A stretch of DNA of 64,000 bases from Myxococcales bacterium (GTDB lineage: Bacteria > Myxococcota_A > Polyangia > Palsa-1104 > JAEUJZ01), in contig JAEUKB010000025.1 in the NCBI GenBank assembly GCA_016794365.1, forward strand, positions 180,693 to 244,692, read 5' to 3'. Positions 30,548 through 33,454 of the stretch are shown here, piece by piece. Position 1 is the first letter of the stretch, and each line of letters opens with the position of its first letter. A model generated the notes under the pieces. That model made no database searches. It was not told where the DNA came from and was given only the letters and a program-made list of their open reading frames with translations. The position numbers and the translations under genes were made by a program.

Positions 30548-33454
30548 CTACTTCTTGGGGTCCGGCGTCTTGGGCTTGGCGGTGAGCGCTTCCTGAAGGG
30601 CGGGTACAAAGCGAGTGCCTCCGACCACATCCTTGAGGATCTCGCCCGCTTCCTTGCCCCGGAACAGAGACACCAAGTTCATGTTCTGGGCCACCTCACT
30701 GAGCAGTGCTTTGTCTCCCAGTGCGGTCAGGGCTTCCACAAGCTGCGGCTGGACGGCGGTTCGCTCTGCCACCACGGCGCGGGCTTGGGCATCGATGAGC
30801 GCCATGTCGAGACCCTTCATCCGGCTCATGTGTCCGAACTCTTCTTCATGAAGCACCTGCGCGGCCTGGGCACGACTGGCGGCATCTTTGATAAGCGCAT
30901 CGCGCTGCGCAGTCTGGGCGACCTGCTCCCGCTCGATCCGCTTGTGTAGATCACCAGACTCGCGCTCTGCCGACAGACGCGCTTGCTCCATGGCCATCGC
31001 TTCGCGATCCCGCAGCTCTGCCAGTCGAGTCTCATGCGACAGCTTGCGCTCCAGCTCCTTGAGCTTGGCTTCGTGCTCTCGCACTTGGGCTTGTAGCTCG
31101 TGCGCACGTAGCTCTAGCTCTGCACGCAGCTTGGCTGACTGAAGCTTGTCCTGCGCTTGCCGGTCACCGATCGCGAGCGTTACAGATTCCCGCTGCACGG
31201 TACGCATCTGCTCTGCGATGAGATCGTCTTCGATCGTGGCATCGAGGATCTCGACTTCATGCACCAGCATTCCGTTTTCCGCAAAGAACCTTCCTTTGCG
31301 GCTGCCATCGGCTTCGTTGCGTGGTCCCAAGATGGTGTCACGTACGACGGCAGCAAGCTGCGGCCACAGCGCGGACAGAGACACCATCCGGGTTCGGCTG
31401 CGCACGATCGAGCGGAGGTGATCGCACAGCACTTGGATGTAGTTTTCCGCGTTAAACCACTTGTCGCGATGATCTCGTAGGAACGTCACGCTGACCGAGA
31501 TGCGCAGGCTGATGCGGACAAAGTCTGCGGACTCGATCTCGATCACATCGGAGACGCGGTTGCCAATGGTGCGCAGAAAGCACGTCACCAGCGGATCATC
31601 GTCGTCCTTGGGTGTTCCGGTCGAGAGCTTGAGGGGAACCAGGTTCTCTTCGTATTCCAGCAAGGTGACGCACGGTCCTTCGACCACGCGCTGTCCGGCG
31701 GCACTGGTGGCGAGCACTGCGGTGTTGTGCGGCACGATGATCGAGATCGCCCACGGCGTAGTCACCAGGCGCGCAGTTCCCTTGTGCGGCTCGCTCGCGG
31801 CGATCCACAGGTTCCAGTCGTGCTGGTTGACGCTGCGGGTGATGTGGATCTCTTTGCGCGGATCGACCAGGTAGGACTGCTTGCCGCGTACCAGGCGGAC
31901 TTCTCCGGTGGTGAGATCGCGGACATAGATGCCGCTCTTTTGGTCGATGCCGATCGCTTCGATAAAGACGTTCGAGTGATCGTTGCCAACCACGGCTTCT
32001 CCGGTATGCGGAGACAGCACTTCGATCTCATTAAACGGAAAGAAGAAGCCCGAGACACCGGACAGGAGCAGCTCGTCACCGGGGAAGTACTGCTCTTTGT
32101 CCAGCTCGACACCACGCGGCATCTTCTTGGCCATGTCTTCGCGCGACGATGCAGAGATGACGCGCAGCCACAGGGCGCGCTGCGGCAGAAGCTCATAGGC
32201 ATCGTAGACGCGATTGCGAGAGCCCTTGATCATGAAGGTGTCGTACGGACCGGGGAAGACGCGGGCCGGGCCGACTTTGATCTCGCGCTTTCCGTCGGGA
32301 TCGATGAGTACGCAGTATTCCTTTTCACCCAGGACGACAGCGCTGCGAATAAGACGCGCTTGGCGGGCCTCTTTTTCGATCGCTTTGCGCAGGGCATCGG
32401 ATGACATGACATCATCGACGGACACGCTGCCACTTGGGGCGACGCTGGGCGCTTGCGCACCGATCACATTGTTTGAAACCGGAGCCGATGGCGCGACAGG
32501 CTTGCCCGCAGGCGGCGCAGCGGGAGCCGGAACGCGCTGCCGGGTGCGTGCGGACTGATCGACCATCTGCGCTGCGGCTTCGGCCTGGTACTGGGCAACG
32601 GCTCGGCGCGGAGGTCGGCTGCGCTCGGGGGGAAGCTCTTCGTCTTCGAGTCGCAGCTCCAGATCATCCTCGCTCGCCATGCCTTTTTTGGCAGGCGGCG
32701 GGGTCGGTGGCGGCGGTGGCGGCAGAGCCTGTGGGGGCTTGGGAAGCTGCGCCTGCATCTGGGCAAGTAGCTTCTGCGCCGTCGTTGCGTTTACGGTCGC
32801 GCCGGACTCATCGACGGAGGTGTCGGGCACGATATCGACGCCCGTCGGCGGAATGTAGAACTGGGTGTCGATGCCGCGTACGACGATCAGCTGGCCGCGC
32901 TTGAGCTCTTGATCGCTGCCTTTGTCCGGGAGCGGCGTCGGTCGTCCGTCCAGCGCTTCCGCCGTCGCGCGGGTGATCGCCGCCGAGCGCGAGGTGACAT
33001 CGAAATACGGCGCTGTGCGATCGACGGGACCGTAGACCTTCACCACCAGGTACTGGCTGGCGGACAGCTCATGGGCATCGCGGACTTCGCAGCGCTGCCC
33101 AGGGCGGAGAAAGAAGCTACAGGGCCCCGGAATCATCGCGCGCGTGCCGTTTTTAAGCGGTCGTGCCTCATTGCGGCCAACGCGGAAGCGACCGTTTGGG
33201 CCGCCGTCGTTTTCCAAAAGCGGATTGAACAGCACCGCGTACTGGTGATCGCCCACCTCGATCATCATCTGTGGACGACCCGAGATGTCTTCGCGGAAGC
33301 TACCGATGCCGTCGTCGATGACTACTCGATCGGCGGCGGTCGGTGACACCATCGTTGGACCGACATGGAGCGTGACTTCGCCCTTGTCGTCGTCCTGAAC
33401 CCATAGAAACTGCCGTTCCGTGACCGGAATTTTGCGGCTACCACGCTCGTTCAT
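30548..33454 (-). CDS. Major vault protein (MVP) homolog: MVP-repeat domains, shoulder domain and C-terminal cap-helix coiled coil, with a Pro/Ala-rich insertion
   Basis: N-terminus IPVTERQFLWVQDDDKGEVTLHVGP matches MVP [23 protein letters not shown]. Repeat-type SFFLRPGQ matches SFFLQPGE. GIYVRDLTTGEVRLVRGKQSYLVDPRKE matches MVP [26 protein letters not shown]. Shoulder IEIESADFVRISLRISVS matches ITIETADHARLQLQLAYN. The C-terminal ~200 aa is a heptad-rich E/R/A/Q coiled coil. No signal peptide. GGGAGG RBS 5 nt before ATG at 33454. Confidence 0.85.
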   Translation of the reverse strand: MNERGSRKIPVTERQFLWVQDDDKGEVTLHVGPTMVSPTAADRVVIDDGIGSFREDISGRPQMMIEVGDHQYAVLFNPLLENDGGPNGRFRVGRNEARPLKNGTRAMIPGPCSFFLRPGQRCEVRDAHELSASQYLVVKVYGPVDRTAPYFDVTSRSAAITRATAEALDGRPTPLPDKGSDQELKRGQLIVVRGIDTQFYIPPTGVDIVPDTSVDESGATVNATTAQKLLAQMQAQLPKPPQALPPPPPPTPPPAKKGMASEDDLELRLEDEELPPERSRPPRRAVAQYQAEAAAQMVDQSARTRQRVPAPAAPPAGKPVAPSAPVSNNVIGAQAPSVAPSGSVSVDDVMSSDALRKAIEKEARQARLIRSAVVLGEKEYCVLIDPDGKREIKVGPARVFPGPYDTFMIKGSRNRVYDAYELLPQRALWLRVISASSREDMAKKMPRGVELDKEQYFPGDELLLSGVSGFFFPFNEIEVLSPHTGEAVVGNDHSNVFIEAIGIDQKSGIYVRDLTTGEVRLVRGKQSYLVDPRKEIHITRSVNQHDWNLWIAASEPHKGTARLVTTPWAISIIVPHNTAVLATSAAGQRVVEGPCVTLLEYEENLVPLKLSTGTPKDDDDPLVTCFLRTIGNRVSDVIEIESADFVRISLRISVSVTFLRDHRDKWFNAENYIQVLCDHLRSIVRSRTRMVSLSALWPQLAAVVRDTILGPRNEADGSRKGRFFAENGMLVHEVEILDATIEDDLIAEQMRTVQRESVTLAIGDRQAQDKLQSAKLRAELELRAHELQAQVREHEAKLKELERKLSHETRLAELRDREAMAMEQARLSAERESGDLHKRIEREQVAQTAQRDALIKDAASRAQAAQVLHEEEFGHMSRMKGLDMALIDAQARAVVAERTAVQPQLVEALTALGDKALLSEVAQNMNLVSLFRGKEAGEILKDVVGGTRFVPALQEALTAKPKTPDPKK

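What the first reader, a model, noticed from the sequence alone, without database searches (positions are those of the whole stretch)
32330..32755. ~140-aa Pro/Ala-rich low-complexity insertion inside the MVP repeat region
Residues ~235-375 (...AQLPKPPQALPPPPPPTPPPAKKGMASEDDLELRLEDEELPPERSRPPRRA...PAPAAPPAGKPVAPSAPVSNNVIGAQAPSVAPSGSVSV...) have no counterpart in eukaryotic MVP, which is a continuous array of repeat domains. Polyproline segments are SH3/WW/profilin-type ligands and flexible spacers. In a vault shell this insertion would project from the barrel wall, possibly as a recruitment or cargo-tethering arm, or it would have to be looped out for assembly.
Basis: seen in the sequence. Interest (0 to 1): 0.5.

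Follow-up and report, generated by a model that had tools for sequence, protein, structure and literature searches.

The report
Disordered loop in bacterial vault protein
A myxobacterial relative of the major vault protein carries a roughly 150-residue, mostly disordered loop between two of its repeat domains; the loop is real, is specific to one bacterial clade, evolves fast, and holds a small conserved arginine-rich motif, so it is probably a flexible tether rather than a proline ligand for SH3, WW or profilin domains.

Summary
Window 30548..33460 (-) encodes a 970-aa (probably 968-aa) bacterial major vault protein (MVP) homolog. Residues 236-377 (window 32330..32755) are 18% Pro and 18% Ala, against 5% and 9% elsewhere.

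A profile of insert-free homologs bounds the insertion at residues 213-364. It lies between repeat unit 3 (human R1-R3 equivalent) and the R6 equivalent. That is an inter-repeat boundary, where human MVP has R4-R5, part of the PARP4 docking region.

- About 85 of 125 distant homologs join the two flanks directly.
- All 118 Polyangia-type relatives carry 90-170 residues there.
- This junction is the family's main site for large insertions.
- The segment has no similarity to MVP repeats.
- AlphaFold gives pLDDT <50 for 239-287 and 295-352.

The loop is modular: helix α1, a Pro-rich and acidic stretch, a conserved motif Φ[VI]DQSARxRxR[KV] (98/119), a Pro/Ala stretch, then helix α2. dN/dS is 0.2-0.4 in the variable parts and ≤0.1 in the motif.

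Polyproline runs are not conserved (36/119), so the SH3/WW/profilin idea is unsupported. The best reading is a looped-out disordered tether that displays a charged short motif. Its partner and the face it projects from remain unknown. It is a new variant of a known protein kind, of moderate interest.

The parts
30548..33460 (-). Gene for a bacterial major vault protein (MVP) homolog, 970 aa as listed. The probable start is the ATG at 33454, giving 968 aa. Residue numbers in this report use the 970-aa numbering.
   Evidence: ORF list; Pfam MVP_shoulder, Vault_3, Vault_4; phmmer to PDB MVP chains, E 1.5e-21; Foldseek to vault structures, E down to 3e-36; Shine-Dalgarno and homolog starts
32825..33433 (-). 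Repeat units 1-3 (residues 10-212), counterparts of human MVP R1-R3. They end in FYIPPTGVDIVP.
   Evidence: AF2 pLDDT >90 with strand pattern; hhalign of window 7-213 to human 4-162, probability 88.7%
32369..32824 (-). The insertion as bounded by a profile of insert-free homologs (residues 213-364, 152 aa).
   Evidence: hmmalign places these residues in insert states. About 85 distant homologs join the flanks with a gap of -5 to +5 residues (mostly -3), i.e. no linker. 118 close relatives carry 90-170 residues here. It is the main hotspot for large insertions in the family.
32750..32797 (-). Conserved helix α1 at the N-terminal end of the insertion (residues 222-237, ATVNATTAQKLLAQMQ).
   Evidence: Family consensus A..sAaaArqlLaq; AF2 helix 225-237 with pLDDT about 52-64; also present in more distant insert-bearing relatives
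32612..32749 (-). Variable segment 1 (residues 238-283): a Pro-rich run followed by an acidic-hydrophobic block (ASEDDLELRLEDEELPPE).
   Evidence: 15 Pro and 9 D/E in the 47 residues 237-283; pLDDT <50; dN/dS 0.15-0.25 against the three closest relatives (0.63 against the 73%-identical one), with indels; the block upstream of the motif has negative net charge in every motif-bearing member, median -5
32531..32611 (-). Conserved basic block (residues 284-310): PRR, then Φ[VI]DQSARxRxR[KV]. In the window it reads PRRAVAQYQAEAAAQMVDQSARTRQRV.
   Evidence: D301, Q302, A304, R305 and R307 are invariant in A1; motif present in 98/119 members; dN/dS 0.00-0.08 against the two closest relatives, up to 0.22 against more distant ones; net charge median +5
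32423..32530 (-). Variable segment 2 (residues 311-346): a Pro/Ala/Ser-rich stretch, the fastest-evolving part.
   Evidence: 9 Pro and 9 Ala in 36 residues; pLDDT <50; dN/dS 0.35-0.41; length varies widely
32345..32422 (-). Conserved amphipathic helix α2 (residues 347-372, SVDDVMSSDALRKAIEKEARQARLIR), which runs directly into the first strand of the next repeat.
   Evidence: Family consensus l.d.l.s.avRrAlE.EARQARLiR; AF2 helix 355-370 followed by strand 371; dN/dS 0.02-0.13 against the three closest relatives
31565..32344 (-). Repeat units 4-7 (residues 373-632), counterparts of rat/human R6-R9.
   Evidence: phmmer aligns window 375 to rat 274, the start of R6; Pfam Vault_4 and Vault_3; pLDDT >90
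30755..31564 (-). Shoulder domain (residues 633-745) and cap helix (residues 746-902).
   Evidence: PF11978, 67.8 bits; AF2 continuous helix 746-902; Foldseek also hits SPFH cages

Best explanation
Shown: residues 213-364 are a lineage-specific insertion in a bacterial MVP homolog. It sits at the boundary between repeat unit 3 and the R6-equivalent unit. In most family members these two units are joined by a few residues, so the two ends of the insertion lie next to each other and the segment must loop out of the repeat stack.

The loop is anchored by two conserved helices (α1 and α2). Between them it is predicted to be disordered and evolves fast in both sequence and length. It keeps a fixed order of charged elements: a Pro-rich stretch, an acidic-hydrophobic block, then PRR, the motif Φ[VI]DQSARxRxR[KV] and a Pro/Ala stretch.

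Inferred: if the protein assembles into a vault-like cage, every subunit would contribute one such loop at the same latitude. The result would be a ring of flexible arms, each presenting an Arg-rich short linear motif. The Pro/Ala stretches would act as stiff, extended spacers, as in other Ala/Pro-rich bacterial linkers. The Arg-rich motif would be the binding element. Its target could be a polyanionic or acidic partner (nucleic acid, polyphosphate or an acidic protein surface), or an acidic patch on the cage itself.

The insertion starts one or two residues before the position equivalent to human MVP Q164. In the human vault, Q164 contacts the lumenal PARP4 MINT domain. The loop therefore most likely emerges on, or is reachable from, the lumenal face.
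For: - Insertion and its boundaries: hmmalign to the insert-free profile; anchor mapping in 253 homologs; junction sequences; hotspot analysis, with 24 of 118 sequences carrying >=30 aa here, maximum 421 aa, and no other site above 91 aa.
- Family-wide presence with variable length: 118 members, 90-170 aa, median 121; found in 65 loci in GTDB species-representative genomes, nearly all Myxococcota/Polyangia.
- Disorder: pLDDT <50 for 239-287 and 295-352, while the flanking repeats are >90; TOP-IDP mean 0.32 against 0.09.
- Not a repeat domain: hhalign probability 0.1-0.2%; no Pfam hit.
- Conserved islands and charge order.
- Selection: dN/dS 0.006-0.05 in the repeats, 0.00-0.08 in the basic block against the two closest relatives, and 0.15-0.41 in the variable segments.
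- Position relative to eukaryotic MVP: window 7-213 aligns to human 4-162; window 375 aligns to rat 274.
- Human MVP R3-R4, including Q164, R169 and D214, forms the acidic lumenal docking surface for a basic region of the PARP4 MINT domain (PMC12280208, read).
Against: - No binding partner is identified, and there is no conserved gene neighbourhood to suggest one.
- Cage formation by any bacterial MVP homolog has not been shown in the literature I could search.
- The lumenal orientation rests on a sequence alignment of moderate confidence (probability 88.7%) and on a human complex. I could not inspect coordinates.
- 21 of 119 members do not match the motif pattern as written.
- Variable-segment dN/dS of 0.2-0.4 is also compatible with a mere spacer.
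- Pro/Ala-rich linkers are, to my knowledge, common in high-GC myxobacterial proteins, so part of the composition may reflect mutational bias.
Confidence: 0.5

Rival explanations
1. Passive spacer or entropic bristle. The junction tolerates insertions, and in a high-GC lineage a Pro/Ala-rich segment grew by slippage and drift. Helices α1 and α2 are conserved only because they cap the flanking domains. The charged blocks only keep the loop soluble or repel neighbouring particles. No specific partner exists.
For: Extreme variation in length and sequence. The same site accepts unrelated inserts in other clades: helical, coiled-coil and extra repeats. Most homologs function without any insert. dN/dS in the variable parts is 5-60 times that of the repeats. 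GC is higher in the insert, 0.667 against 0.613.
Against: No member of the clade has lost the insert (minimum 90 aa in 118 sequences). An 11-residue motif with four to five invariant positions lies in the middle of the disordered part, with dN = 0 at dS of about 1 against the 86% relative. The acidic-then-basic order is kept in every motif-bearing member. Variable-part dN/dS is still below 0.5 against the closest relatives. No tandem DNA repeat is present to drive slippage.
Confidence: 0.25
2. Assembly strap or latch acting within the cage. The Arg-rich motif docks on an acidic surface of the same or the neighbouring subunit. Candidates are the acidic N-terminal repeats or the loop's own acidic block. 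Docking would stabilise or regulate lateral or half-to-half contacts, in the way extended arms of viral capsid proteins do.
For: The acidic block and the basic block are always paired. The N-terminal repeats carry net negative charge in most 21-residue windows. In human vaults the equivalent R3-R4 surface is acidic and binds a basic ligand (PMC12280208). pLDDT rises slightly above 50 at residues 288-294, and a weak helix is predicted at 285-297.
Against: The monomer model shows no confident docking. Insert-free homologs presumably assemble without any such strap. No multimer prediction could be run.
Confidence: 0.17
3. One reading: the polyproline stretches are ligands for SH3, WW or profilin-like domains.
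For: The window protein has PPPPPPTPPP and several PxxP-like strings.
Against: The run is not conserved. It is lost in the 86% relative. Runs of five or more Pro occur in 36 of 119 members. No neighbour gave a Pfam SH3, WW or profilin hit.
Confidence: 0.03
4. The segment is a degenerate remnant of the repeat domains R4-R5 that eukaryotic MVP has at this position.
For: Positional correspondence with human residues 165-271. The length is similar, about 150 against about 107 aa.
Against: No profile similarity to any MVP repeat (probability 0.1-0.2%). No Pfam repeat hit. The composition and AF2 prediction are incompatible with a beta-sheet domain. Most prokaryote-type homologs have nothing there, so absence is the likely ancestral state.
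Confidence: 0.02

Closest known systems
Eukaryotic major vault protein (rat/human MVP; PDB 4V60, 7PKZ, 9BW5, 11DR)
   Same: The overall architecture is the same: N-terminal beta-rich repeats, an SPFH-like shoulder, a very long cap helix and a C-terminal cap region. Evidence is a significant sequence match (E 1.5e-21), a fold match (E down to 3e-36) and Pfam domains above their cut-offs.
   Different: The window protein has seven repeat units instead of nine. R4-R5 are missing, and the disordered loop sits at their position. No PARP4, TEP1 or vault RNA context was seen. Assembly state is unknown.
Prokaryote-type MVP homologs without the insert (Myxococcales, Cytophagales and Oscillatoriales proteins described by Sokolskyi 2019, bioRxiv 10.1101/872010; unnamed metagenomic representatives P0130, P0132, P0140, P0166, P0180 and others)
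   Same: The same seven-unit repeat core, shoulder and cap helix. Identity is 28-50% across both flanks.
   Different: These proteins join FYIPPTG[IV]E[IV]V directly to VRxAVxLxxxEYC with no linker. The window clade has 90-170 residues there. Neither held preprint on bacterial or phage MVPs mentions an insertion or disorder at this site.
Ala/Pro-rich inter-domain linkers of bacterial proteins (E2 chains of 2-oxo-acid dehydrogenase complexes, TonB and TolA spacers, the FtsZ C-terminal linker); comparison from general knowledge, not tested here
   Same: Pro/Ala-rich, extended, fast-evolving in sequence and length. They serve as spacers that let an attached element reach a partner.
   Different: Those linkers connect two separate modules in series. 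This one is a closed loop whose ends meet, inserted inside a repeat stack, and it carries its own conserved charged motif.
Arginine-rich disordered arms of icosahedral capsid proteins (for example the HBV core C-terminal domain and bromovirus N-terminal arms); comparison from general knowledge, not tested here
   Same: A disordered, Arg-rich segment present once per subunit of a shell-forming protein. The RxRxR spacing is suited to polyanion binding.
   Different: Here the segment is internal, not terminal, and has only 5 K/R in 27 residues. An acidic block precedes it. Orientation and nucleic-acid binding are untested.
PARP4 MINT domain docking on MVP R3-R4 (PMC12280208)
   Same: It occupies the same latitude of the MVP chain. 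The interaction is electrostatic, between an acidic MVP surface and a basic ligand, and it recruits contents to the cage wall.
   Different: In vertebrates the basic element belongs to a separate protein and binds folded repeats. Here a basic motif is built into the MVP chain itself, and no partner is known.

Membership tests
Major vault protein (MVP) family | MVP shoulder domain (Pfam PF11978) | tested here: met
   67.8 bits against a cut-off of 25, residues 634-744
Major vault protein (MVP) family | MVP repeat domains (Pfam Vault_3, Vault_4) | tested here: met
   Vault_3 33.2 bits against 28.8; Vault_4 24.0 against 22.9; beta-rich units at pLDDT >90
Major vault protein (MVP) family | Long cap helix following the shoulder | tested here: met
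   AF2 continuous helix 746-902; phmmer alignment to rat MVP extends to residue 781
Major vault protein (MVP) family | Fold similarity to solved vault shell chains | tested here: met
   Foldseek E 3e-36 to 1e-29 against human, rabbit and rat MVP; R1-R7 crystal structures at E 4e-15
Major vault protein (MVP) family | Nine repeat domains R1-R9, as in eukaryotic vault MVP | tested here: not met
   Seven units in the AF2 model. Units 1-3 align to human R1-R3 and units 4-7 to R6-R9. The protein is therefore filed as a prokaryote-type MVP homolog, not a canonical vault MVP.
Major vault protein (MVP) family | Assembly into a closed 39-fold half-vault or 78-mer cage | not testable with these tools
   No multimer prediction was available. 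No experimental report for bacterial homologs was found.
Intrinsically disordered linker carrying short linear motifs | Biased composition and low sequence complexity | tested here: met
   P+A 35% against 14%, p = 3e-10; entropy 2.5-3.3 bits
Intrinsically disordered linker carrying short linear motifs | No predicted stable structure between well-folded flanks | tested here: met
   pLDDT <50 for 239-287 and 295-352, with flanks >90
Intrinsically disordered linker carrying short linear motifs | Rapid change of sequence and length, with short conserved islands | tested here: met
   Length 90-170 in 118 members; dN/dS 0.15-0.41 in the variable parts against 0.00-0.08 in the motif for the closest relatives; motif present in 98/119
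Intrinsically disordered linker carrying short linear motifs | A partner that binds the motif | not testable with these tools
   No conserved neighbouring gene. Needs pull-down or structural work.
Polyproline ligands of SH3/WW/profilin domains | A conserved PxxP or poly-Pro core | tested here: not met
   Runs of five or more Pro in 36/119 members; lost in the 86% relative
MVP repeat domain (the finding's own refutation criterion) | Profile similarity of the segment to an MVP repeat | tested here: not met
   hhalign probability 0.13% against human MVP and 0.16% against the protein's own flanks; no Pfam hit at E<=10
Arg-rich polyanion-binding arms of shell proteins | A cluster of Arg in a disordered segment, one per subunit | tested here: met
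   In the 98 motif-matching members, both central Arg of RxRxR are present in 98/98 and the third in 96/98; block net charge median +5
Arg-rich polyanion-binding arms of shell proteins | Projection into the lumen and binding of nucleic acid or another polyanion | not testable with these tools
   Only an inference, from the alignment to human Q164 and the PARP4 complex

The most novel reading that the evidence does not exclude
The boundary after repeat unit 3 is a modular 'adaptor slot' of vault-like cages across life. Different lineages have filled it with different recruiting devices: a disordered Arg-rich tether in Polyangia, a small helical domain in another bacterial clade, a PspA/IM30-like coiled coil in one relative, extra repeats in others, and the R4-R5 repeats that dock PARP4 in eukaryotes. 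In Polyangia, the ring of Arg-rich loops would line the lumen and package a polyanion such as RNA, DNA or polyphosphate. That would make these the first bacterial vault-type nucleoprotein or storage compartments.
Probability: 0.1. Interest if true: 0.8.

Novelty: new variant of a known kind. Interest (0 to 1): 0.4.

Why it matters
Bacterial MVP homologs have been known from sequence since about 2013-2019, but they are uncharacterised, and the function of vaults is still open.

This analysis shows that one inter-repeat junction is where the family diversifies. The junction coincides with the region where eukaryotic vaults carry R4-R5, part of the region that docks their only enzymatic passenger, PARP4.

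If the Polyangia loop is a built-in tether, it offers two things:
- a simple, genetically tractable test of what a vault-like cage recruits in a bacterium;
- a naturally permissive site (tolerating 0 to about 420 residues) for engineering payload-display loops into vault nanoparticles.

If instead it is only a spacer, the finding is an ordinary example of a fast-evolving Pro/Ala-rich linker in a high-GC myxobacterial protein.

Tried and rejected
- First AlphaFold run, on 16 close homologs: mean pLDDT 49, unusable for the repeats. Repeating it with 60 diverse homologs gave 78.5.
- Profile search meant to collect diverse homologs returned mostly the same clade.
- The search for related loci with the diverse alignment failed for lack of conserved stretches. 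The close-family alignment worked.
- Gene neighbourhood gave no conserved partner. The convergent EF-hand gene is kept only in the 94% and 86% relatives.
- Tandem Repeats Finder found no meaningful DNA repeat.
- Pfam, NCBIfam and PADLOC found nothing for the insert. NCBIfam and PADLOC also found nothing for the whole protein.
- Cluster look-up gave no taxonomy for the insert-free representatives, so they are described only as prokaryote-type metagenomic homologs. All score 108 bits or less against human MVP.
- Rejected ideas: degenerate R4-R5 repeats; SH3/WW/profilin ligand; an annotation artefact, gene fusion or frameshift, since the ORF is continuous and collinear in more than 100 homologs.
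Full report
**1. What is at the coordinates**

The finding lies inside a single long ORF, window 30548..33460 on the minus strand, 970 codons from a GTG. A GGAGG lies 7 nt upstream of the ATG at 33454, and every homolog starts MNER or MER. The protein is therefore probably 968 aa. I keep the 970-aa numbering throughout.

The finding's span 32330..32755 corresponds to residues 236-377, and both quoted peptide strings are there.
- Pro is 17.6% in the segment, against 5.1% in the rest of the protein (p = 6e-8).
- Pro plus Ala is 35%, against 14% (p = 3e-10).
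- Thirty-residue windows have 2.5-3.3 bits of entropy, against about 3.5-4.0 in the folded parts.
- At the DNA level there is only a weak GGC run at 32689-32723 and no true tandem repeat.

**2. The gene is a genuine prokaryote-type MVP homolog**

- Pfam finds MVP_shoulder (67.8 bits), Vault_3 and Vault_4, all above their cut-offs.
- phmmer aligns residues 375-899 to rat MVP 274-781 with E 1.5e-21.
- An AlphaFold model built on 60 diverse homologs has mean pLDDT 78.5, with values above 90 for residues 10-210 and 370-745.
- Foldseek matches that model to human, rabbit and rat vault chains at E 1e-29 to 3e-36. Matches to SPFH cages (flotillin, prohibitin, HflK/C, stomatin) through the shoulder are weaker.

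Bacterial MVP homologs, including those of Myxococcales, are already in the literature (Sokolskyi 2019, bioRxiv 10.1101/872010; phage-MVP preprint 10.1101/2023.11.10.566534). Neither text mentions an insertion, a linker or disorder at this site.

**3. It is an insertion, and where it sits**

I mapped two conserved anchors in 253 homologs. The anchors are the end of unit 3, FYIPPTG[VI][DE][VI]V, and the start of the next unit, VRxAVxLxxxEYC.
- In about 85 of roughly 125 full-length distant representatives the two anchors abut, with an extrapolated gap of -5 to +5 residues, mostly -3. A typical junction reads ipptgievvkddrryvrdavtlerleyc.
- A profile built from 89 such insert-free proteins places window residues 213-364 in insert states.
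- The AF2 model shows seven beta-rich units: 10-60, 64-118 and 120-212 before the insert, and 371-417, 418-485, 497-560 and 565-630 after it.
- hhalign aligns window 7-213 collinearly with human MVP 4-162, that is R1-R3 (probability 88.7%). I had first verified my recalled human sequence as 100% identical to PDB 11DR chain A.
- phmmer puts window 375 on rat 274, the start of R6.

The insertion is therefore exactly at an inter-repeat boundary. The prokaryote-type core lacks R4-R5, and the loop occupies the place where eukaryotic MVP has those two repeats. R3, R4 and R5 are paralogous, so unit 3 stands for the whole R3-R5 block. Either way, the boundary is the one that precedes the R6 equivalent.

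**4. It is not a decayed repeat**

- The alignment of 119 inserts has hhalign probability 0.13% against human MVP and 0.16% against the window protein's own flanks.
- Pfam finds nothing at E<=10.
- Composition and predicted structure are incompatible with a beta domain.

The finding's own refutation criterion is therefore not met.

**5. Distribution**

The first search returned 302 proteins, and the 120 listed are 56-100% identical and 909-1013 aa long. Named sources among them are Polyangium, Byssovorax, Minicystis rosea, Polyangiaceae and Polyangia MAGs.

A scan of one genome per GTDB species found 65 loci. Almost all are Myxococcota, with a few MAGs labelled Planctomycetota or Thermoanaerobaculia. 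The closest is a 94%-identical uncultured Myxococcales MAG. All 118 members that pass strict flank-identity filters carry 90-170 residues at the junction, median 121.

Other clades fill the same site differently:
- a 90-115-aa segment that is not Pro-rich and looks helical;
- three or four tandem copies of the R6-type unit (P0175, P0182, which are among the representatives closest to human MVP);
- 242-418-aa highly charged segments in the nearest sister groups;
- one 318-aa insert (P0122) that scores above the Pfam cut-off for PspA/IM30 (E 4.4e-13).

Across 118 full-length sequences this junction is the dominant site for large insertions. Twenty-four sequences carry 30 aa or more there, up to 421 aa. 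No other site exceeds 91 aa.

**6. Anatomy of the loop**

Conservation in the family and the model give five parts.
- α1, residues 222-237, consensus A..sAaaArqlLaq, AF2 helix 225-237.
- Variable segment 1, residues 238-283: a Pro-rich run, then an acidic-hydrophobic block. The 35 residues upstream of the motif have negative net charge in every motif-bearing member, median -5.
- A basic block, residues 284-310: PRR, then Φ-[VI]-D-Q-S-A-R-x-R-x-R-[KV]. The motif is present in 98 of 119 members. Among those 98, Q, R and R are in 98, A and the last R in 96, and D in 93. Net charge is median +5.
- Variable segment 2, residues 311-346, rich in Pro, Ala and Ser.
- α2, residues 347-372, consensus l.d.l.s.avRrAlE.EARQARLiR, AF2 helix 355-370, running straight into strand 371.

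pLDDT is below 50 for 239-287 and 295-352, and 52-64 for the two helices.

**7. Selection**

I computed Nei-Gojobori estimates against four relatives whose DNA I fetched (94, 86, 84 and 73% protein identity).

| Region | dN/dS |
|---|---|
| Repeats (three closest relatives) | 0.006-0.05 |
| Basic block (two closest relatives) | 0.00-0.08, with dN = 0 at dS about 1 against the 86% relative |
| α2 (three closest relatives) | 0.02-0.13 |
| Variable segment 1 (three closest relatives) | 0.15-0.25 |
| Variable segment 2 | 0.35-0.41 |

The variable parts are relaxed but not neutral, and the islands are as constrained as the folded domains. The PPPPPPTPPP run of the window protein is kept only in the 94% relative and is gone at 86%. 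Runs of five or more Pro occur in 36 of 119 members.

**8. How it most likely works**

Shown: the segment is a closed loop, because its ends must be adjacent. It is anchored by two helices, disordered in between, and carries a conserved acidic-then-basic pair of elements.

Inferred: in a cage, each subunit would place one loop at the same latitude. The Pro/Ala stretches would serve as extended spacers and the Arg-rich motif as the binding element.

In the human vault, the acidic surface of R3-R4, including Q164, R169 and D214, binds a basic region of the PARP4 MINT domain on the lumenal side (PMC12280208). The bacterial loop begins at the position equivalent to human residue 163-164. A lumenal or lumen-accessible exit is therefore the better guess, and the latitude is the one eukaryotes use to dock contents.

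I commit to a 'built-in flexible tether displaying a charged short linear motif' at a confidence of about 0.5. The identity of the partner is open: a polyanion, an acidic protein or the cage itself.

The rivals are:
- a passive spacer (0.25);
- an intra-cage strap (0.17);
- a degenerate repeat (0.02).

**9. Context**

Neighbours give no help. The nearby genes are:
- a convergent four-EF-hand protein (29978-30544);
- a class III nucleotidyl cyclase (28496-30175);
- two paralogous lipoproteins (33652-35382 and 35552-37225);
- a TonB-dependent receptor.

Only the EF-hand gene is retained, and only in the two closest relatives. Polyangium spumosum and Minicystis rosea have unrelated neighbours. 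NCBIfam and PADLOC have no model for the protein.

**10. Verdict**

It also lies where eukaryotes have R4-R5.

This is a new variant of a known protein kind. Interest is moderate, at 0.4. The most useful outcomes are the hotspot junction and the conserved motif, which give a concrete, testable handle on what a bacterial vault-like protein recruits.

Noticed in passing
window 33452-33460 and upstream to 33475: The listed ORF starts at a GTG (33460). However, a GGAGG lies 7 nt upstream of the ATG at 33454, and all homologs begin MNER/MER. The real protein is probably 968 aa.
   Followed up: yes
protein P0122 (1129 aa, representative library), residues ~228-545: At the same inter-repeat junction this relative carries a 318-aa charged coiled-coil insert. 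It scores above the Pfam cut-off for PspA/IM30 (E 4.4e-13, 49.8 bits against 33.9). This could be a real membrane-remodelling module or a coiled-coil composition artefact.
   Followed up: partly
proteins P0131, P0133-P0142, P0147, P0152, P0164 (representative library), junction inserts of 90-115 aa: A different bacterial MVP clade has a helix-looking insert at the same junction. It is not Pro-rich, shows a recurring G.L.IEN..FL.KAGI..Y pattern, and has no Pfam match. It is possibly an undescribed small domain.
   Followed up: partly
proteins P0175 and P0182 (representative library), junction inserts of 137 and 211 aa: These carry three to four tandem copies of the R6-type repeat unit at the same junction. 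They are among the representatives closest to human MVP. This suggests that repeat number changes at this site, as with eukaryotic R4-R5.
   Followed up: partly
window 29978-30544 (+): A 188-aa protein with four EF-hands, convergent with the MVP gene and ending 4 nt from it. It is retained next to the MVP gene in the 94% and 86% relatives (L003, L004) but not in more distant ones.
   Followed up: partly
window 28496-30175 (-): A membrane-anchored class III adenylate/guanylate cyclase. Its best PADLOC hit is the Pycsar cyclase PycC (E 2e-29). This is probably generic cyclase homology, since no Pycsar effector was noted nearby.
   Followed up: no
window 33652-35382 (-) and 35552-37225 (-): Two paralogous putative lipoproteins of about 560 aa with a DxSxS (MIDAS-like) motif. 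They have no Pfam family and only a partial NCBIfam 'MIDAS family adhesin' hit, far below the cut-off.
   Followed up: no
window 32423-32530 (residues 311-346) compared with L003 (94% relative): This 36-codon stretch has dN 0.40 and dS 1.0, while the flanking parts of the same gene pair have dS 0.2-0.35. This is local hyper-divergence, from undetected indel or slippage turnover or from recombination.
   Followed up: partly
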